DNA of 64,000 nt from a virus, in IMG/VR virus record IMGVR_UViG_3300036791_001907, positions 1 through 64,000 of that record. The stretch is one strand, 5' to 3'. Shown in pieces: positions 32,486-64,000 of this stretch. The notes beneath the pieces are model-generated. The model worked only from the letters and a program-made list of their open reading frames with translations. It did not search any database and was not told the origin of the DNA. Within the stretch, counting starts at the first letter, position 1. The number at the start of each line of letters is the position of its first letter. Both the position numbers and the translations under genes were made by a program.

Positions 32486-34147
32486 ATGGCCGACATCCTC
32501 GATGTGCTCGACCTGTCGACGATCGACCCCACGCTCGTGGACCTGGTGCACCAGCAGATCTCCGAGCGGATGGCGGAACAGTTCCCCGAGCTGGAGATCA
32601 AACGGGGAGTTATTCATGATATCGTCCTGTATCTGATGTCGATCCTGGGTGCCGAGCAACGGACCCGGATGCAACTGATCTTGCAATCCAACAGCCTGCT
32701 GTCGATCTCCCAGAACCCGGCGCTGAGCGACGACACCACCGTCGATCTGCTGCTCTCGAACTTCCGGATCACCCGCGAGCCCGGCGCGCCCGCCGCCGGT
32801 ACGATCACCATCATTCTCAGCGCGCTGACACCGGTCGTGATCCCGGCGGCCGCCCTGTTCTCTTCCGGCACCATGACGTTCACGCCCGGCCAGGCCTACG
32901 CGGCGCGGATCAACGCCGCCACGGCCACCACCGATACGGACCGCGTGCTCTACCCGCTGGGCGACGGCACTTACGCATTTTCAATACCGGTGACGGCCAC
33001 GGCGGCGGGTTCGGCCGGCATGCTCCGCCGCGGCGCCGGCCTGACGCCCCTGGACCCCATCCCCTACTTCGACCGGGCGTTCGCCGAGAGCGACTTCACG
33101 GGTGGTTTCGACCCGGAAACCAACCAGGACATGCTCAACCAGCTCCAGAGCGGCATGGCGGCCCAGGCGTGGTCGAACCGGGTCACGATCGACGCCTCGA
33201 TCCGCGCCATGCCCGAGTTCTCCCGCATCCTTCAGACCTCGATCATCGGCGCCGGCGATCCCGAGATGCTCCGCGACAAGCATACGGTGATGCCGATCGC
33301 CAACTTCGGCCGGGTCGATCTCTATGTTCGCACCCAGGCGCTGCCGGCGTCGCGCACCCTGACCTACACGGCCACCTTCATCCAGGCCACTTCCGGCGGC
33401 GGGATCTGGCAGTTCTCGGTCGCCTCGGCCGACGCCCCCAGCTTCTACGTGGTCGACCGGGTCGGGCCGCCGCTGGGGCCACAGGATGATGCGGGTTACG
33501 AGATCACCAGCGACATTCGCGGCGTGGATCTGAACTACCCCGGTTTCGTGCCCGACATCATGAACCCGCTGGAGGCGACCTATAGCCGCTATCAGGCGGC
33601 GACCGTCCAGTTCCTGGACACGGACACGCCGGTTACCGGCCTGGTTCCGAACCAGTCCACCGCGCAGTACTCCGTCTCGCTCCTGCTGATGCCCCTGATC
33701 GACGCGATCCAGGATACCGTCTCCGGCCGCTCCTTCGGCGCCCCGGCCGGGGACTGCCTGGTCAAGGCCCCGGTCCCCTGCTTCCTGACGCTCAGCTTCA
33801 ACATCAACAAGCGGGCCACCGTGATCGTCGATCAGCCGACCATCGATGGCATCAGTACGTCCGTGGCCAGTCTGGTCAACTCGCTGGGCTTCATCGGCCA
33901 GCTCTACGCCAGCCTGCTGGCCGAGACGATCCAGCAACAGCTGCCCGATGGCGCCTACCTCGGCGCCATCGATATGTTCGGAACCATCCGGCTGCCGGAC
34001 GGCACGATCCGGCGGATCCGCAGCCCGGAGGTCCTTGAAGTCCCTGATATCCCTGCGCTGATGGTCACCGCGCGCACGGTGATCTTTCTGCTCGACCCGC
34101 TCGACATCGGTATCTCCGTGATCGATGTGGACATGCCCGACATCTAA
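32486..34147 (+). CDS. Baseplate J-like (gp6) wedge protein
   Basis: NFRITREPGAPAAGTITI...VTATAAGSAG...FTGGFDPETNQDM...GRVDLYV are Baseplate_J motifs. Confidence 0.85.
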   Translation: MADILDVLDLSTIDPTLVDLVHQQISERMAEQFPELEIKRGVIHDIVLYLMSILGAEQRTRMQLILQSNSLLSISQNPALSDDTTVDLLLSNFRITREPGAPAAGTITIILSALTPVVIPAAALFSSGTMTFTPGQAYAARINAATATTDTDRVLYPLGDGTYAFSIPVTATAAGSAGMLRRGAGLTPLDPIPYFDRAFAESDFTGGFDPETNQDMLNQLQSGMAAQAWSNRVTIDASIRAMPEFSRILQTSIIGAGDPEMLRDKHTVMPIANFGRVDLYVRTQALPASRTLTYTATFIQATSGGGIWQFSVASADAPSFYVVDRVGPPLGPQDDAGYEITSDIRGVDLNYPGFVPDIMNPLEATYSRYQAATVQFLDTDTPVTGLVPNQSTAQYSVSLLLMPLIDAIQDTVSGRSFGAPAGDCLVKAPVPCFLTLSFNINKRATVIVDQPTIDGISTSVASLVNSLGFIGQLYASLLAETIQQQLPDGAYLGAIDMFGTIRLPDGTIRRIRSPEVLEVPDIPALMVTARTVIFLLDPLDIGISVIDVDMPDI

Positions 34148-58991: not shown

Positions 58992-60208
58992 GACGGAAGA
59001 GGCGGAGACGATACGACTACAGCCGCGACGAGAAAGCGTTGCCCAAGGCGGAGCCACTCACGGGCGAGATCATCGGGGCGAGGCGACTGGGCGTGCGGTT
59101 CCTGGAGGAGGGGATCATCGCGCTTGGGCACGTCGCCGAGCGGTGGCGGCTCACTGATGACATCGACGCCTTGCTGGCCCCCGATGACGAGTTCGTTGCC
59201 GGCAGCTCGTATCGCGAGATCAGGAAGGCCCTGGAAGCACGGCATCCCTCGCCGGTCCCTGGCGTGAGCCGGGTCGAGATCTGCAACGGCAGCGACATGA
59301 AGCTGCACGTCATGCCGTTCGCCGACTCGGTGATCGTCCAGGTCAGGAGGAACCCGCAGCACGTCCAGTACCGTTGGGGTGATAGTTACATCAAGACCTG
59401 GATCATCAATGCGATCGAGACCCTCACACGGCTCACCGCCGGGGGCGAGGACCTGCTGATCTCGCACGAGGCCGAGGAGATCATTCGTACCCGGGAGGAC
59501 TTCGAGGGATCGGACCTGGTCATCGCCCGCCGCGACAACTGGTACTCGATCGTCAAGTACCGGCCCAGCAAGGCCGCAGCACGGCGGCATACCAGGACCA
59601 CGATCAAGAAGAAGGATGAACACGCCAATGAACTGGTCGTGGCGGCCCGCGAGCTGCGCGGCGCCGCGATCGAAGCTTATGCTGCGCTCCGCGAGGAGCT
59701 GGACCGGTTCGGCGCCTGCGCCGTTCTGACCGAGATCAAGCCCCAGAGACACTATCACAGCGATGACGACACGAATTCGCTGGTCGGGGTCCGGTACATC
59801 CACGCGCTGCTGCCGATCCATGCGGCCCTCCTGGGCAAGCATGCCTATCGTTACAATCTCCTCTGGCAGGGGTTTCTCGACAAGGTCCGGGCCCGCCTCC
59901 AGGACCTCGACGATGTCACCTGGGGCAACTACGGGGACGTCAAGCCGTGGCTCGAGGCTGAGTGCCGACTCCGGAAGCTGCCGCCGACGGCGAAGATGCT
60001 CGCCGCGAAGGCTGCGGCCGAAGCCGAGGAACTGCGGAAGCTGACCTGCGCCCGCTGCGGCGACCCCGTGCCCAACATTCATCACCTGAGCTGGCCACCG
60101 ACCGGATGCCGGACCCGGTATCCACGGGAAGCCAGGCTCTGCGGCGCCTGCTGGCAGTTCGAGTACGAGACCATCGGTGTGGCGGAACCCGTGGCCGCGG
60201 ACGGCTGA
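58988..60208 (+). CDS. Hypothetical protein with C-terminal zinc finger
   Basis: SD GGAGG; CARC...CGAC. Confidence 0.6.
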   Translation: MRRKRRRRYDYSRDEKALPKAEPLTGEIIGARRLGVRFLEEGIIALGHVAERWRLTDDIDALLAPDDEFVAGSSYREIRKALEARHPSPVPGVSRVEICNGSDMKLHVMPFADSVIVQVRRNPQHVQYRWGDSYIKTWIINAIETLTRLTAGGEDLLISHEAEEIIRTREDFEGSDLVIARRDNWYSIVKYRPSKAAARRHTRTTIKKKDEHANELVVAARELRGAAIEAYAALREELDRFGACAVLTEIKPQRHYHSDDDTNSLVGVRYIHALLPIHAALLGKHAYRYNLLWQGFLDKVRARLQDLDDVTWGNYGDVKPWLEAECRLRKLPPTAKMLAAKAAAEAEELRKLTCARCGDPVPNIHHLSWPPTGCRTRYPREARLCGACWQFEYETIGVAEPVAADG

Positions 60209-60236
60209 TCCGTCTGGGAACTCCGGGAGGAACATC

Positions 60237-60785
60237 ATGGTCGGGAAAGCCTACGGACCACGGGGCATGATGAAGTCCCGCGAGGATGTGACCCAGGGAT
60301 GGGCCCAGGCCATCAAGGCCAACGTCCGGCCGCCTGAAGGCGGCGTGCTCACGGACGCGGCGGCCAGCGACTACGCCGATCAGTTCTGGAGGTCGCTGGA
60401 GCAGCGCCATGTGCCGATCAAGGAGATCATGGCGGTACCCGGCAGGGACGCTGTGGCATGGGTGCTGCTCGCCGCAGCTCCGGCTACAACCATTGAGATC
60501 GACGCGATGGCGATCGACGAACCCCCGGAATTCGAGGAGGACCATGTGAAGACGGCGCAGGGCAAACCCATCGATCTGGGGACGCGCGATGTGACGGTAT
60601 CGGTATACGCGCTCCTCAATGCCACGATCCGCGTCAAGGGCGATGACGGCGAGTATCATCCCGTGCCTGTCCAGGCCGAGCTCGAGATCCATCACGGGAG
60701 TCTGCGCCAGCTGGTCCAGAAGGCCAACACGAACATGTCGAAGAAGAGCAGCGACGGCGCGGTGACCGTTCGCATCCGCGGGTAA
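60237..60785 (+). CDS. Hypothetical protein
   Basis: SD GGGAGG before ATG 60237. Confidence 0.55.
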   Translation: MVGKAYGPRGMMKSREDVTQGWAQAIKANVRPPEGGVLTDAAASDYADQFWRSLEQRHVPIKEIMAVPGRDAVAWVLLAAAPATTIEIDAMAIDEPPEFEEDHVKTAQGKPIDLGTRDVTVSVYALLNATIRVKGDDGEYHPVPVQAELEIHHGSLRQLVQKANTNMSKKSSDGAVTVRIRG

Positions 60786-60799
60786 CCCAATGAAGGAGG

Positions 60800-61057
60800 A
60801 TGATGGGCATGTGGACGTCTTATCTTCAGCTCCGCGGCGCCGAGGCCCGTGCGGCCGGACGGTCCCGCGACGATCACCAGCTCGACAGCCAGGACGCGGC
60901 GCTGTGGCTGGAGGGCTACGATGCCATGAACCAGAGGATCACGTCGCTCCTCGGCGAGATCCGCAGGGGTTGGCTGGTCCCGCACGTCGTCTTCGTCCAG
61001 CGAGAGCGACCCAGCGTTCCCGTGGTGATCACTCCGATCCGAGGATTGTCCGAATGA
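60800..61057 (+). CDS. Small hypothetical protein
   Basis: SD AAGGAGG; the start may be 60803 or 60809. Confidence 0.5.
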   Translation: MMGMWTSYLQLRGAEARAAGRSRDDHQLDSQDAALWLEGYDAMNQRITSLLGEIRRGWLVPHVVFVQRERPSVPVVITPIRGLSE

Positions 61058-61278
61058 ACAAGCCCAAGTATCACCGCGGCCAGAAGTTCCGGATGGGCAG
61101 CGACGGCTCGCGGTTCGAGATCGAAAACGTGCGCGTGCTGGCACCCGATGATCGGATCGGCTACGAGCTGCGCGGCCTGGAGGAACCATTCCAGGGAATG
61201 GTTCTTCACCGCTTCGAGGCCGAGCTGGAACGCGACTTCGAGCTGGAGCCAGAACCACCAAAGGAGGACCCAGCGTAA
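61054..61278 (+). CDS. Small SH3-like hypothetical protein
   Basis: SD GAGGA; PKYHRGQKF start. Confidence 0.55.
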   Translation: MNKPKYHRGQKFRMGSDGSRFEIENVRVLAPDDRIGYELRGLEEPFQGMVLHRFEAELERDFELEPEPPKEDPA

Positions 61279-61289
61279 CGATGCAGCGA

Positions 61290-61318
61290 ACCGACGGCCA
61301 GCGGTATATCTGGCGGTG
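61290..61318 (+). repeat. Array leader hairpin, copy 1 (ACCGACGGCCAGCGGTATATCTGGCGGTG)
   Basis: 29-nt repeat also found at 62220 and 62529. Confidence 0.9.
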
Positions 61319-61320
61319 AT

Positions 61321-61688
61321 GGCAGCGATGGGTATGTTGCGGCGGGCCGAGCTACGTCGTGGTAGGTCCGGCAGCTGCGGTTGGGTTCGTCATGGCGAGC
61401 CGAGCATGGGTATGCTCCGTCATGGCAGCCGAGGCATGGTTTGTTGGACCATGGCGAGATGAGCTTAGCCGAGCTTCGGCGAGGCAGCCGGGGTGTGGTT
61501 CGGCGGGCTGTGCGGCGCCACGCCAGGGTTGGGCAGCTCAGATCAGGTGTGGACAGCTCTGGCCGGCAGCGCCAGGTCATGGCAGCCGAGGATAGACCTG
61601 GCCAGCCACGCGGAGCCGTCGTGAGCCGGGGCAGCATTGGCTGGTCACGTCATGACACGGCCAGTCGAGCACGGCCATGTTATGTCAG
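61321..61688 (+). ncRNA. Pentamer-periodic guide-RNA array 1 (7 units; GNY-NN modules)
   Basis: GGCAG anchors at 61321, 61370, 61424, 61483, 61532, 61581, 61630 and GTCAG at 61684. Spacings are 49, 54, 59, 49, 49, 49, 54, all 9+5n. Confidence 0.8.
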
Positions 61689-61706
61689 CATTGAAAGGAG
61701 GTGAAT

Positions 61707-61928
61707 GTGTCAAAGATAGTTCATTTGATCTATCATCGCGTCCCCAACGATCGGATCTCAGACATGAGCGAGGTCGTGGGGGTCGTGACCACGGGCTGGC
61801 AGGATGCCGATGCGATCGTGGATCAGCTCAACGCGCGGGACCCATCCGGATTCGGCTGGCAGCGCGACTACTGGAAAAAGGAGGTTGATGTCATCACCAA
61901 GGATGATGTTCCGCGTCGCACTCCATGA
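61707..61928 (+). CDS. Small hypothetical protein between arrays
   Basis: Perfect SD AAGGAGGT; GTG 61707. Confidence 0.6.
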   Translation: MSKIVHLIYHRVPNDRISDMSEVVGVVTTGWQDADAIVDQLNARDPSGFGWQRDYWKKEVDVITKDDVPRRTP

Positions 61929-61940
61929 CAGGAGACAGCG

Positions 61941-62207
61941 ATGATCTGTCCGGAATGCGGGCATTCCAACCCGGTGATCGCCGCCGAGTGTCTCAAGTGC
62001 CGGTGCCGGTTCCTGGAACACGGTTGTTTTTCCGAGCAGTATCAGCACCCGCTCGTCGGCAAGCGAATCCAGGTCAATACCAGGACCGGCTGCATGGCCG
62101 AAGGGGTCGTGGAGCGGGTGGTGTCTTCACGTTTCGGCCTGCTCGCCTGCCTGGAAGGCGAAAACGGCAGGGCCTGGGCCGTGAACCAATGCACGCCGGT
62201 CACCTGA
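61941..62207 (+). CDS. Zinc-ribbon protein between arrays
   Basis: SD AGGAG; CPECG...CLKC. Confidence 0.65.
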   Translation: MICPECGHSNPVIAAECLKCRCRFLEHGCFSEQYQHPLVGKRIQVNTRTGCMAEGVVERVVSSRFGLLACLEGENGRAWAVNQCTPVT

Positions 62208-62219
62208 CCGGCGTCATGG

Positions 62220-62248
62220 ACCGATGGCCGGCGGTATATCCGGCGGTG
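62220..62248 (+). repeat. Array leader hairpin, copy 2 (ACCGATGGCCGGCGGTATATCCGGCGGTG)
   Basis: Compensatory stem change GCCAG/CTGGC to GCCGG/CCGGC. Confidence 0.9.
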
Positions 62249-62250
62249 GT

Positions 62251-62522
62251 GGCTAGCCCTGGCGACATCAGCAATGGTCGCGCGAGCACTGCCGTGGCGC
62301 GTTCAGGCAGTACAGGCGGGGTGATGCGGGCAACGGCAGGGCCGGGTCCGTCCGGCGATGTCATGCCACGGTATGGCAGCTCAGGTGAGTTCAGATCGGC
62401 CATGCGCGGGCTGGCTGCGGTGACCAGAGGTGGGTCGAGCCGTGGCGAGGCAGCGTAGCCATGGAAGGGTCGGGTCGGTTGAGCTGCGGCGAGCCCAGCT
62501 GACGCAGGGCTGGCCGCGGCAG
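62251..62522 (+). ncRNA. Pentamer-periodic guide-RNA array 2 (4 units)
   Basis: Anchors GGCTAG 62251 and GGCAG 62306, 62375, 62449, 62518; spacings 55 (1-nt insertion), 69, 74, 69. Confidence 0.8.
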
Positions 62523-62528
62523 CAAAGA

Positions 62529-62557
62529 ACCGATGGCCAGCGGTATATCTGGCGGTG
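62529..62557 (+). repeat. Array leader hairpin, copy 3 (ACCGATGGCCAGCGGTATATCTGGCGGTG)
   Basis: Third copy of the 29-nt repeat. Confidence 0.9.
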
Positions 62558-62569
62558 ACGGGAAGCATC

Positions 62570-62628
62570 GGCAGCGACGGAATGGCAGGGCAAGTTGCGT
62601 CTTGTTCCGGCCAGCCAAGTCATGGCTG
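62570..62628 (+). ncRNA. Pentamer-periodic guide-RNA array 3 (single unit matching the adjacent Cas7-like gene)
   Basis: GGCAG 62570 to GGCTG 62624 (54 nt); the NN string matches 62854-62883 at 9 of 10 dinucleotides. Confidence 0.8.
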
Positions 62629-62754
62629 CGTCGTATTGCCGATCACTACGAGGACGATCCGCCTGCGCGGTGGATCGGAACACGTACTGAACACCCTACA
62701 GTTGCAGGGCCGCGGGACGCGCGGCCCGTCTCACTGGCGACAAAGGATGATCCA

Positions 62755-63666
62755 ATGCCAGCCAAGAAAGGTCCGGCCAAGGGGACAGTCCCGGTCAACA
62801 TCCCCCAGCCACAGATCCTCGACTTCGGGATCGGACTCATCGGCGTGACGCCGACGATCTCGAACGCATTCCCGCAGAAGATCCGTGAGAAGCTCGTGGC
62901 TGATCACATGCACATGCCTGAGGCCCTCATCCCCCACGAGGCCAAGGACCCGTGCGCCAACTTCAGCGCGTGCATCCACTACGTCAAGTCCAAGGACGGT
63001 GGGGTCAACTTCGCCATGCCCGGCTCCTCGTTCAAGGGGGCCATGGTCGCGGCGTGCCGGATGACCAACAAGAAGTTGGACATGGCCAGTGCCAAGCAGT
63101 TCTTCCAGGTGATCCCGTTCCGGGTCCAGATGTACGGCGACGAGCCGATCATGTGCGAGCACCGGGTCCGCAACGACAACGGCGGCGTCGACATCCGGCA
63201 CCGGGCCATGTACTGCCGTTGGTCGGTGATCCTGCCGATCCGCTACCACGCGGGGTCGATCTCCAAGGAGTCCCTGATCTACCTGGCGGAGCTGGCCGGC
63301 TTCGGCTGTGGCATCGGTGACTGGCGGATCGCGGCGCCCAAGAGCCCCAACGGGCAGATGGGCGCCTTCCGCGTGGCCCGCGAGGGCGAGATCGTCGGCC
63401 CGGCGTACTCCAAGTGGTGCGCCAAGAACCCGTTCGACTGGGACGAGTTCGAGCAGTACGGCATCGTCCCGCCCGCGCGGGTCGAGTACTACCGCAAGGC
63501 CGCCGAGATGGTTCGCGGCCTGCCGCCCGAGCAGCGGGGCACGCCCAAGAAGGGCAAGAGCCGGAAGGCTGTGCCCACCGCTGCGGCCGCCGCGGCGATC
63601 ATCAACGGCGTCCAGCCCGTCGACGGCCTTGAGCCGCCCGATGACGGCTACGTGCCGCAGCAGTAA
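62755..63666 (+). CDS. Stand-alone Cas7/RAMP-like RNA-binding protein (candidate guide-RNA effector, Vipr-like)
   Basis: SD AAAGGA before ATG 62755. RAMP hallmarks: beta1 IGLIGVTP, MPGSSFKGAM (cf. IPGSSLKGA), thumb region HRVR...DIRHRAMY..W and Gly-rich loop AGFGCGIGDWR...GQMGAFRV. Confidence 0.75.
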   Translation: MPAKKGPAKGTVPVNIPQPQILDFGIGLIGVTPTISNAFPQKIREKLVADHMHMPEALIPHEAKDPCANFSACIHYVKSKDGGVNFAMPGSSFKGAMVAACRMTNKKLDMASAKQFFQVIPFRVQMYGDEPIMCEHRVRNDNGGVDIRHRAMYCRWSVILPIRYHAGSISKESLIYLAELAGFGCGIGDWRIAAPKSPNGQMGAFRVAREGEIVGPAYSKWCAKNPFDWDEFEQYGIVPPARVEYYRKAAEMVRGLPPEQRGTPKKGKSRKAVPTAAAAAAIINGVQPVDGLEPPDDGYVPQQ

Positions 63667-63741
63667 CCACTTCGTGCAGGAGGACGACCGGGGGCCAGGA
63701 TGGCCCCATCTTTCCCGCAACCCTAGCAGCAAGGATCGAAC

Positions 63742-64000
63742 ATGCCATCGGGTGTCAAGAAGAAGTCATCAGCGCCGGCGCCGGCGCTCAAGTACGAGTT
63801 CCGGGCCTGCTTCCGGAGCCCGCTCGATCCCAACGTCGTCGCGGCGCGGCTCGAATGGCTCAGAACCAGACTGAGCCGGGACCCGGAGGGTCAGGACGTC
63901 CTGGAAGACGCCCGGCCCGTCGGCTCGCCGTTGCATGATCACTTCGACTGGAATGACTACGAGGCCGGCGAGAAGCATCGGCTCGGCCAGGCCACGGATC
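63742..64000 (+). CDS. Partner protein of the Cas7-like gene (3'-truncated by the window; absent from the ORF track)
   Basis: SD AAGGA; open to the window end: MPSGVKKK...DVLEDARPVGSPLHDHFDWNDYEAGEKHRLGQA. Confidence 0.7.
   Translation, partial: MPSGVKKKSSAPAPALKYEFRACFRSPLDPNVVAARLEWLRTRLSRDPEGQDVLEDARPVGSPLHDHFDWNDYEAGEKHRLGQATD

What the first reader, a model, noticed from the sequence alone, without database searches (positions are those of the whole stretch)
61290..62557. Three-copy 29-nt leader hairpin with a compensatory base-pair change
ACCGAYGGCCRGCGGTATATCYGGCGGTG occurs at 61290, 62220 and 62529, each immediately before an array. Copies 1 and 3 pair GCCAG/CTGGC and copy 2 pairs GCCGG/CCGGC, a double compensatory change; the loop CGGTATAT is invariant. 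Inference: a processing or loading handle for the guide RNA, a binding site for the partner protein, or a promoter/operator, since the loop contains a TATAT -10-like element.
Basis: partly seen in the sequence, partly recalled or inferred. Interest (0 to 1): 0.75.

Follow-up and report, generated by a model that had tools for sequence, protein, structure and literature searches.

The report
Pseudoknot heading phage VIPR guide arrays
The repeated 29-base "hairpin" is real, but it is one helix of a small RNA pseudoknot that opens each run of guide RNAs in a phage VIPR system (a CRISPR-like, RNA-guided gene-silencing system first described in 2026). In the studied VIPR systems the equivalent knot closes the end of each single guide.

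Summary
The 29-nt motif is at 61290, 62220 and 62529, with none expected by chance. It is an undercount: the 161-kb phage record has 12 copies, all on the + strand, and five related metagenomic phages carry 37 more.

Across 48 copies, 431 of 432 base-pair cells pair. The 5-bp stem covaries at 4 of 5 pairs and has many G·U but no A·C pairs, which points to + strand RNA. The "invariant loop" is not a loop. Its first four bases (CGGT) pair with ACCG upstream and covary with it, giving an H-type pseudoknot. The remaining TATAT-like part changes between genomes, so it is not a -10 box.

The "arrays" are runs of 8-24 (mostly 9-15) G-S-Y-N-N pentamers separated by 4-nt GGCA units. The 303-aa gene at 62755-63666 matches the solved SUSP1 Vipr protein and folds like Cas7. 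The locus is therefore a VIPR system with staggered vrRNA arrays.

The knot has the same architecture as the SUSP1 3' tail pseudoknot. Here it sits at the 5' head of each array, about one per five guides, often directly after a stop codon.

Its most likely role is a structured handle or cap for assembly, processing or protection of the guide ribonucleoprotein. This was not tested. It is a new variant of a known kind. Other reports of this scan reached the same reading on an adjacent stretch of this genome.

The parts
61054..61278 (+). Small protein gene (74 aa) whose stop codon lies 11 nt before pseudoknot copy 1. There is no guide array upstream of copy 1.
   Evidence: upstream P3 = 7.1 and P5 = 0.9, i.e. 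coding periodicity, not pentamer periodicity.
61290..61318 (+). Pseudoknot copy 1. S1 is 61290-61293 (ACCG) with 61302-61305 (CGGT). L1 is 61294-61296. S2 is 61297-61301 (GCCAG) with 61310-61314 (CTGGC). L3 is 61306-61309 (ATAT). It is followed by GGTG(AYGG), which runs into the first pentamers.
61319..61693 (+). Staggered guide array 1: seven runs of 9-11 G-S-Y-N-N pentamers separated by 4-nt GGCA units.
61707..61928 (+). Small gene (73 aa, GTG start, AGGAGG ribosome-binding site) inside the locus. No family match.
61941..62207 (+). Small zinc-ribbon-like gene (88 aa). Its stop codon lies 12 nt before pseudoknot copy 2.
   Evidence: weak Zn_Ribbon_1 match, below the Pfam cut-off.
62220..62248 (+). 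Pseudoknot copy 2, with S2 = GCCGG/CCGGC.
62249..62528 (+). Staggered guide array 2: four runs of 12-14 pentamers. It ends in the GGCAGC boundary plus purine-rich linker (GGCAGCAAAGA) that precedes copy 3.
62529..62557 (+). Pseudoknot copy 3, with S2 = GCCAG/CTGGC. It is 98% identical over 52 nt to the copy at genome position 67133.
62558..62650 (+). Short array 3: three pentamers, GGCA, then a 10-pentamer guide at 62574-62623. No pseudoknot follows it. Non-periodic hairpins and the vipr ribosome-binding site come next.
62574..62623 (+). Guide whose NN dinucleotides (AC AT AG AA GC TT CC CA AA AT), read with one skipped base between them, match the phage's own vipr gene at 62854-62883 in 18 of 20 letters.
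   Evidence: The lead came from earlier finding e1-5669350.
62755..63666 (+). vipr: a 303-aa RAMP protein with MPGSSFKGAMVAACR and the G-loop AGFGCGIGDWR.
   Evidence: The family profile hits PDB 36pp_D 'SUSP1 Vipr protein' at E = 1.6e-5. The top Foldseek PDB matches of the AF2 model are mostly CRISPR RAMPs (Csm3, Cas7, Cas7-11, Cmr), best E 1.8e-3, none at or below 0.001. It matches phrog_4652.
63742..64000 (+). Start of the conserved 177-aa neighbour gene, which runs to genome position 64275. It is the probable vap accessory gene. Pseudoknot copy 4 starts 9 nt after its stop codon.
   Evidence: It is syntenic in all six genomes. Its family has 2,815 representative clusters. No clear solved-fold match.

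Best explanation
The motif is a transcribed, compact H-type RNA pseudoknot. S1 is 4 bp, ACCN with NGGU. L1 is 3 nt. S2 is 5 bp and freely covarying. L3 is 4-5 A/U/C-rich nt. It is the fixed structured module of the guide RNAs of a phage VIPR system (Vipr RAMP protein, accessory gene and pentamer-coded vrRNAs).

In this clade it stands at the 5' head of each staggered array. A purine-rich single-stranded linker (GCARNRA) follows a GGCA boundary or a gene's stop codon. Then comes the knot, whose 3' strand runs straight into GGUGA-YGGNN pentamers and on into 1-9 guide runs.

Shown here: the structure, its strand, its position, and its architectural identity with the SUSP1 tail pseudoknot.

Inferred: what it does. 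My best guess is that it acts as the end cap or anchor of the Vipr-vrRNA filament, fixing where and in which 5-nt register Vipr protomers start. It may also mark and protect the 5' end of the array once the array is separated from the upstream mRNA or array, for example by cleavage in the linker, with the knot blocking 5'-to-3' decay.

Rough odds: RNA pseudoknot belonging to the VIPR guide arrays, 0.9. Head rather than tail of the functional RNA, 0.75. Cap or assembly/processing handle as the actual function, 0.55.
For: Structure. 48 copies from 6 genomes give 431/432 paired cells. S2 has double changes at 4 of 5 pairs. S1 pair 1-16 is AU 42 / CG 5 and pair 4-13 is GC 42 / CG 4 / UA 2. No shuffle of 500 reached the observed paired percentage or covariation score, and all slid controls fall to about 30-50% paired. 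The 12th copy adds U-A at pair 1-16. L024 copies 5153 and 6147 share the same S2 and are 89% identical over 57 nt; among their differences are motif positions 4 and 13, C-G versus G-C.

Strand. There are 27 G·U cells and no A·C, and all copies lie on the gene-sense strand.

System. vipr is identified. Pentamer periodicity with G at every 5th base (75-90%) occurs in this genome and in L007 and L009. There are 60 runs of 8-24, mostly 9-15, pentamers separated by GGCA, matching the 9-16 YNNGG repeats and 'staggered arrays' of bioRxiv 10.64898/2026.04.26.720920. One guide matches vipr at 18/20 letters by the 1-nt-skip rule. One guide is conserved between two phages at 17/18 NN letters while its scaffold letters differ.

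Homology of architecture. SUSP1 tails read from the phage record are S1 4 bp (GTAG/CTAC, GTGG/CCAC, AAGG/CCTT), a short L1, S2 5 bp (GTCTC/GAGAC, GGTAG/CTACC, GGCAG/CTGCC) and an A/U-rich L3. Cryo-EM shows that this knot caps the vrRNA end next to the best-ordered protomers (10.64898/2026.04.26.720927).

Head position. 25 of 27 copies are followed by a periodic array, while 8-9 of 27 are preceded by coding sequence. In all six genomes a knot starts 3-12 nt after the vap stop codon. The last array ends at a terminator without a knot. The solo copy at 85.3 kb has the order stop codon, knot, array, terminator-like hairpins. The vipr-matching guide has a knot only on its 5' side. The knot is fused without spacer to downstream pentamers, whereas upstream there is a linker.
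Against: There are no RNA data of any kind, so transcript ends, processing sites and Vipr binding are unobserved.

In the only studied VIPR systems the pseudoknot is at the 3' end of every guide. Homology therefore argues that the knot could belong to the guide upstream of it.

One short array (genome 66160-66232) follows a small gene and has a knot only on its 3' side.

Only about one knot exists per five guides, so most guides would lack a cap if guides are cut apart at GGCA.

The copies within a genome are paralogues, so the covariation counts include inherited events rather than independent ones.

An alternative outer helix, ACC with GGU at positions 26-28, is also possible and has one compensatory G-C case.

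ViennaRNA energy is not better than shuffles, and it cannot score pseudoknots.
Confidence: 0.7

Rival explanations
1. The knot is the 3' tail of the guide immediately upstream, as in type II (SUSP1) vrRNAs. Copies that follow genes would be orphans, or would double as 3'-end stabilisers of the mRNAs. Arrays without a downstream knot would use another 3' end.
For: It has the same pseudoknot architecture as the SUSP1 3' tail, and that knot caps the 3' end in cryo-EM. About 40 nt separate the last GG of the upstream GGCAGC from the end of the motif, similar to the tail of about 40 nt in the preprint. The short array at genome 66160-66232 has a knot only at its 3' side.
Against: 8-9 of 27 copies, plus the solo copy, have coding sequence upstream and no repeats. 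At least five arrays in this genome, including the one holding the vipr-matching guide and the last array, have no knot downstream. The knot is separated from upstream repeats by a linker but fused directly to downstream pentamers, the mirror image of SUSP1. In six of six genomes the first element after vap is a knot, not an array.
Confidence: 0.15
2. The motif is a DNA element, either a promoter with the TATAT as its -10 box or an operator bound by a dimeric protein, which drives or controls each array.
For: There is one copy per array, all in one orientation, and an A-rich stretch lies upstream. The loop reads TATAT in this genome.
Against: The TATAT part is ATAC, ATAA or CTAT(T) in relatives. 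No hexamer has the A(-11)...T(-7) pattern, and the scan finds no sigma-70-like site at any of the three copies. Arm sequences change freely while pairing is kept, which is the opposite of a protein-read palindrome. G·T-only mismatches are strand-specific. Covariation between position 4 and loop position 13 has no meaning for a promoter.
Confidence: 0.05
3. The knot unit is a purely cis-acting RNA processing device that separates arrays. It would be either a very small self-cleaving ribozyme or a host RNase site, analogous to the hammerhead-interspersed VIPR arrays, and it would have no role in the mature ribonucleoprotein.
For: The preprint describes hammerhead ribozymes between vrRNA segments in other VIPR types. 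The knot unit sits between GGCA boundaries in a fixed register, like a cassette. It lies at every junction between mRNA and array.
Against: There is no match to any Rfam ribozyme family, even at E <= 1. A 25-nt H-type knot is smaller than any known self-cleaving ribozyme. Its close architectural match to a knot that stays in the mature SUSP1 complex argues for a role in the particle.
Confidence: 0.1

Closest known systems
3' pseudoknot tail of type II VIPR vrRNAs (Escherichia phage SUSP1 clade; bioRxiv 10.64898/2026.04.26.720920 and 10.64898/2026.04.26.720927)
   Same: It is an H-type pseudoknot with a 4-bp S1, a short L1, a 5-bp S2 and an A/U-rich L3. It is fused directly to GGY-NN pentamer repeats. 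It is encoded beside a Vipr RAMP gene and an accessory gene in a phage. Its stems covary while the architecture is kept.
   Different: Here it lies 5' of the repeats, not 3'. There is about one per five guide runs, not one per guide. It is more compact (L2 = 0, L3 = 4-5 nt against 8-9). It often lies directly after a stop codon. There is no sequence similarity to the SUSP1 tails.
Staggered vrRNA arrays of VIPR systems (fig. S18 of 10.64898/2026.04.26.720920)
   Same: Runs of pentamers abut with a one-base register slip, here the 4-nt GGCA unit (GGCA|G). Run lengths are mostly 9-15 pentamers.
   Different: The text and legends that I could read do not mention a structured module heading such arrays, and the figures are not held. 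I therefore cannot tell whether the authors drew one.
CRISPR repeat hairpins bound by Cas6 (class 1 systems)
   Same: It is a short conserved stem-loop that punctuates a guide precursor and is read by, or next to, RAMP proteins. Its stems covary.
   Different: There is no repeat-spacer regularity and no cas genes. The guides are gapped pentamer codes rather than contiguous spacers. The element is a pseudoknot and is not present at every guide.
PeSL (promoter-early stem-loop) cassettes of T4-type phages
   Same: It is a repeated, co-oriented motif of 30-60 nt with a stem-loop, flanking small genes in one region of a large phage genome. This comparison rests on my own knowledge and was not checked here.
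   Different: PeSLs carry a recognisable early promoter and flank protein genes. This motif has no promoter consensus and heads non-coding guide arrays.

Membership tests
VIPR system | A Vipr protein (minimal RAMP with G-loop and thumb) encoded in the locus | tested here: met
   A profile of the 303-aa protein family hits PDB 36pp_D 'SUSP1 Vipr protein' at E = 1.6e-5 over the G-loop region. The top fold matches of the AF2 model are mostly CRISPR RAMPs, best E 1.8e-3, none at or below 0.001. The G-loop CGIGDWR corresponds to the SUSP1 residues C171, V173, D175, Y176 and R177 that read GGY.
VIPR system | vrRNAs made of 9-16 tandem pentamers, with a conserved GGY (or related) triplet alternating with variable NN | tested here: met
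   G is at every 5th base (75-90%) and the consensus is G-S-Y-N-N. The same lag-5 signal is seen in this genome and in two relatives checked (L007, L009). There are 60 runs of 8-24, mostly 9-15, pentamers. The second G is weaker here (45% G, 33% C) than in SUSP1.
VIPR system | Adjacent accessory gene (vap) | tested here: inconclusive
   A 174-193-aa gene follows vipr in all six genomes, and its family has 2,815 representative clusters. The confident AF2 model (pLDDT 89.6) has no clear solved-fold match, only weak WH1/Rep-like rows. Identity with vap1-6 could not be tested, because no vap sequences are at hand.
VIPR system | Guides specify targets through NN letters with one skipped base | tested here: inconclusive
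   One guide matches the phage's own vipr at 18/20 letters in the codon frame. One guide keeps 17/18 NN letters between two phages while its scaffold letters differ. No external target was found.
Type II vrRNA tail pseudoknot | H-type pseudoknot directly fused to the pentamer tract | tested here: met
   SUSP1 sequences; this family.
Type II vrRNA tail pseudoknot | Located at the 3' end of each single guide | tested here: not met
   Its position is 5' of the arrays, and there are 12 knots for about 60 guide runs.
Sigma-70-type promoter | -35 and -10 hexamers at 16-18 nt spacing, with A at -11 and T at -7 | tested here: not met
   The scan finds no site at any copy. The TATAT-like part is not conserved in relatives.
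Intrinsic terminator | G+C-rich hairpin followed by a U run | tested here: not met
   No terminator-like sites occur in 60700-64000. The motif is followed by GGTGAYGG.
Any Rfam family (including hammerhead, twister, pistol) | Covariance-model match | tested here: not met
   There is no match at gathering score in the window. Nothing relevant appears at E <= 1 in 9 kb of the arrays.
CRISPR array | Regular repeat-spacer units with cas genes | tested here: not met
   Motif spacing is 309-1755 nt and irregular. Tandem Repeats Finder reports no array in 60000-64000, only two short simple repeats inside coding sequence. The only RAMP gene present is vipr.

The most novel reading that the evidence does not exclude
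In this clade one pseudoknot serves a whole run of four to nine guides. It would be the entry point and register-setter for Vipr filaments on a long multi-guide precursor, or the 5' cap of a single multi-guide particle. That would be a route of guide biogenesis and a polarity opposite to the studied type II VIPR, where a knot caps the 3' end of every guide and target engagement spreads 3' to 5' from it. If true, the same RAMP-plus-knot module works from either end of the guide.
Probability: 0.4. Interest if true: 0.7.

Novelty: new variant of a known kind. Interest (0 to 1): 0.6.

Why it matters
VIPR is a months-old class of RNA-guided DNA recognition, and only the E. coli and Pseudomonas type II systems have been dissected. 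This locus is from a soil phage. Its contig is 228 kb, and its closest isolated relatives by vipr are Mycobacterium and Gordonia phages. The same kind of pseudoknot is kept here but moved to the head of long staggered arrays holding about 60 guides in all.

That gives a concrete test of what the knot is for, whether cap, nucleation site or processing mark. It also gives a test of how staggered arrays, which have not been verified experimentally, are matured. The 48-copy alignment and its covariance model give a handle for finding such arrays elsewhere. It also corrects the simple reading of a hairpin with a -10 box in its loop.

Tried and rejected
- **blastn of the locus against 50,697 phage records:** no match.
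- **Exact motif pattern in IMG/VR:** no match outside the own record.
- **Back-translated search for vipr in IMG/VR:** nothing. Relatives came instead from the protein database.
- **tRNA and tmRNA scan:** none.
- **Tandem Repeats Finder:** misses the arrays because only one base in five is conserved.
- **MFE folding of whole units:** z = -1.7 to -3.0, similar on the opposite strand, so not informative.
- **MFE of the 29-mers:** not better than shuffles.
- **Unit-against-unit blastn:** only the motif is shared. This ruled out paralogous long ncRNAs.
- **Ideas dropped once the 5-nt lattice and the VIPR papers were found:** helical-phase protein binding sites, Chi-like sites, an origin or pac site, integron attC, and REP elements.
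- **Local search of all 60 guides, with skips of 0-3 bases, against the own genome (locus masked) and two relatives:** not above shuffled controls, apart from one guide shared with L007.
- **xNN pattern of that conserved guide:** 5 hits in low-GC viral contigs and 64 hits in unrelated proteins of all phyla. All fit a generic G-[IM]-S-x-A-[DE]-x-x-[DE] peptide and the number expected by chance, so no target was identified.
- **Sequencing runs:** one soil DNA run, probably the source sample. No RNA holder is listed.
- **Fold search of the 177-aa protein:** nothing clear. The protein atlas gives only viral hypothetical clusters.
- **Intergenic gaps next to vipr homologues in Mycobacterium phage Donkeykong and Gordonia phage UmaThurman:** no obvious GGY lattice or knot by eye. 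Not pursued.
Full report
**Observation.** The stated 29-nt pattern occurs at 61290, 62220 and 62529 on the + strand and nowhere else in the window, even with three mismatches. Shuffles give none. The A-T to G-C exchange between copies 1/3 and copy 2 is as described.

The window ends inside the feature. The record is a 161,481-bp IMG/VR virus record, classed there as a provirus, and the contig on record is 227.7 kb. Eleven copies lie between 61290 and 67513, all on the + strand. A covariance model built later finds a twelfth at about 85319.

**Structure.** Copies beyond the window show many more arm variants: GTCGG/CCGGT, GCCAC/GTGGT, GTCAC/GTGAC, GTCGC/GCGAC.

The 303-aa protein encoded inside the locus has metagenomic homologues at 44-60% identity. 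Their contigs are syntenic and carry the same motif on the same strand. In all, 48 copies from six genomes were aligned.

With a pseudoknot notation, 431 of 432 cells form standard pairs. The 5-bp helix (S2, motif positions 8-12 with 21-25) has double changes at four of five pairs, and the fifth alternates G-C and G·U.

Its pair 1-16 is A-U in 42 copies and C-G in 5. Its pair 4-13 is G-C in 42, C-G in 4 and U-A in 2. No shuffle of 500 reaches the observed paired percentage or covariation score, and sliding the partners drops pairing to 31-52%.

The solo twelfth copy reads UCCG/CGGA, adding U-A at pair 1-16. Two L024 copies that share the same S2 and are 89% identical over 57 nt have C-G versus G-C at positions 4 and 13.

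The alternative of an outer helix, ACC with the GGU that follows S2, fits less well, with seven unpaired cells. Those bases also read as the first GGY of the array.

All wobble cells are G·U (27) and none is A·C. The folding strand is therefore the + strand, which is the sense strand of every flanking gene, so the folded molecule is RNA. Thermodynamic prediction alone does not single the motif out.

The four loop bases that remain single-stranded (L3) are ATAT here, but ATAC, ATAA or CTAT(T) in relatives.

**The arrays.** The non-coding stretches after each copy are G-rich (39% G) and enriched in GGCAG, 67 observed against 24 expected. Aligning on GGCAG shows that every fifth base is G (75-90%) for at least 35 nt on both sides. 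The consensus is G-(G/C)-(C/T)-N-N, and GGCAG is a 4-nt step that shifts the lattice by one.

The lag-5 signal is present in every array of this genome and in those of L007 and L009. It is absent from coding sequence. In this genome it is concentrated at 61.3-67.8 kb, with a weaker patch near 85.3 kb; scattered single windows elsewhere also reach the top 60.

A five-state parse gives 60 runs of 8-24, mostly 9-15, pentamers separated by GGCA (or GGCC/CGCC) units.

**Identification.** A literature search for pentanucleotide periodicity led to bioRxiv 10.64898/2026.04.26.720920. VIPR systems consist of a Vipr RAMP protein, an accessory vap gene and vrRNAs.

- The vrRNAs have 9-16 YNNGG repeats, and their NN letters read double-stranded DNA with one skipped base.
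- Type II vrRNAs end in an invariant 3' tail with a pseudoknot.
- Other types have 'staggered arrays' with a 1-nt overlap, or hammerhead-interspersed arrays.

The 303-aa protein at 62755-63666 carries MPGSSFKGAMVAACR and AGFGCGIGDWR. Its family profile hits the solved 'SUSP1 Vipr protein' (PDB 36pp_D, E = 1.6e-5) across the G-loop. Its model's top fold matches are mostly Csm3, Cas7, Cas7-11 and Cmr chains, with best E 1.8e-3 and none at or below 0.001.

The structural preprint (10.64898/2026.04.26.720927) assigns GGY recognition to the SUSP1 G-loop residues C171, V173, D175, Y176 and R177. These correspond to C-G-I-G-D-W-R here.

The next gene (177 aa) is conserved in synteny and is the probable vap, but its fold gave no clear match.

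A guide at 62574-62623 matches the phage's own vipr at 18 of 20 code letters in the codon frame. Another guide keeps 17 of 18 NN letters between this phage and L007 while the scaffold letters differ. That is the pattern expected if NN carries the information.

**Relation to the known tail.** I read the SUSP1 locus from its GenBank record. Its tails are H-type pseudoknots:

- S1 of 4 bp: GTAG/CTAC, GTGG/CCAC, AAGG/CCTT.
- L1 of 2-3 nt.
- S2 of 5 bp: GTCTC/GAGAC, GGTAG/CTACC, GGCAG/CTGCC.
- An A/U-rich L3 of 8-9 nt.

They are fused at their 5' side to the last repeat. The motif here has the same plan in a tighter form (L1 3 nt, no L2, L3 4-5 nt).

**Head or tail.** In this clade the knot precedes arrays.

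- 25 of 27 copies are followed by periodic sequence, while 8-9 are preceded by coding sequence.
- In all six genomes a knot starts 3-12 nt after the vap stop codon.
- The last array runs into a bidirectional terminator without a knot.
- The solo unit at 85.3 kb has the order stop codon, knot, about 130 nt of array, then terminator-like hairpins.
- The vipr-matching guide has a knot only on its 5' side.
- The knot is fused directly to downstream pentamers (GGUGA-YGG is nearly invariant), but a purine-rich linker separates it from the upstream boundary.
- The register is fixed: GGCAGC plus 5 nt precedes S1 in 27 of 48 copies, and a GGCA unit lies 6, 11 or 16 nt after S2 in 28 of 48.

The knot unit therefore looks like a cassette the size of a guide run, placed about once per five guides. 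One short array (genome 66160-66232) is the exception, with a knot only at its 3' side.

**Mechanism.** Shown: a transcribed pseudoknot that belongs to VIPR guide arrays and heads them.

Inferred: by analogy with SUSP1, the knot caps the vrRNA end beside the most ordered protomers. I propose that here it anchors or starts the Vipr filament and fixes its 5-nt register at the 5' end. I also propose that the linker-plus-knot marks and protects the array's 5' end after separation from upstream RNA.

Rivals are a 3' tail of the upstream guide (0.15), a pure processing device or ribozyme (0.10) and a promoter/operator (0.05). The promoter reading fails on three counts: conservation of the TATAT part, the consensus scan, and the strand-specific RNA pairing.

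**Limits.** No RNA data exist for this soil phage. Copies within a genome are paralogues, so the counts are not independent events. The figures of the preprints are not held, so I cannot exclude that a head module is already drawn for some VIPR type. The host is unknown. The closest isolated phages by vipr are Mycobacterium and Gordonia phages, and the DNA is 66% G+C. An actinobacterial host is therefore an inference only.

**Earlier notes of this scan.** I consulted the index only after reaching this reading. It lists independent first-stage notes and follow-ups on the neighbouring window that also call the motif a pseudoknot heading VIPR arrays.

Noticed in passing
genome 85312-85680 (outside the window; G000:C1): A solo unit lies 17 kb from the main locus. 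It has a stop codon, a pseudoknot with S1 = UCCG/CGGA, about 130 nt of pentamer array, then strong hairpins. It resembles the 'solo vrRNAs' described for SUSP1-family phages.
   Followed up: partly
window 62574-62623 versus 62854-62883: The guide just upstream of vipr spells the conserved T-I-S-N-A-F-P-Q-K-I stretch of the phage's own vipr at 18/20 letters. The miss is the Ser codon: TCG in the gene against AG in the guide. Relatives L009 and L020 use AGC there but differ at other letters, giving 16/20.
   Followed up: partly
genome 67624-67668 versus L007:13697-13745: A nine-pentamer guide is shared by two phages whose Vipr proteins are about 52% identical. 17 of 18 NN letters are the same, while the G-S-Y scaffold letters differ at several positions. 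No target was found for it.
   Followed up: partly
window 61941-62207 and genome 65937-66152: Two small Cys-rich (zinc-ribbon-like) genes with good ribosome-binding sites sit between guide arrays inside the locus. Their role is unknown.
   Followed up: no
window 62650-62754: Between the vipr-matching guide and the vipr start codon lie two non-periodic hairpins, GATCCGCC...GGTGGATC and GGGCCGCG-GGAC-GCGCGGCCC. They could end that guide RNA or attenuate read-through into vipr.
   Followed up: no
L010 (Mycobacterium phage Donkeykong gene 49) and L011 (Gordonia phage UmaThurman gene 39): Distant vipr homologues (about 28-30% identity) sit in the early operon next to the immunity region of temperate actinobacteriophages and are annotated as hypothetical. 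The adjacent gaps of about 110 nt showed no obvious GGY lattice by eye.
   Followed up: partly
L009:11513-11545: A degenerate knot copy occurs right after vap (GCCG...CGGG, G·G at pair 1-16, GGC instead of GGT after S2). It shows that copies can decay at this position.
   Followed up: partly
window 1-60000: The rest of the window encodes large structural proteins on the + strand: baseplate J-like at 32486-34147, a 1213-aa protein with a laminin-G/lectin domain, and proteins of 1889 aa and 1246 aa with no family. The contig on record is 228 kb, so the IMG/VR label 'provirus' may be doubtful and this may be a jumbo phage.
   Followed up: no
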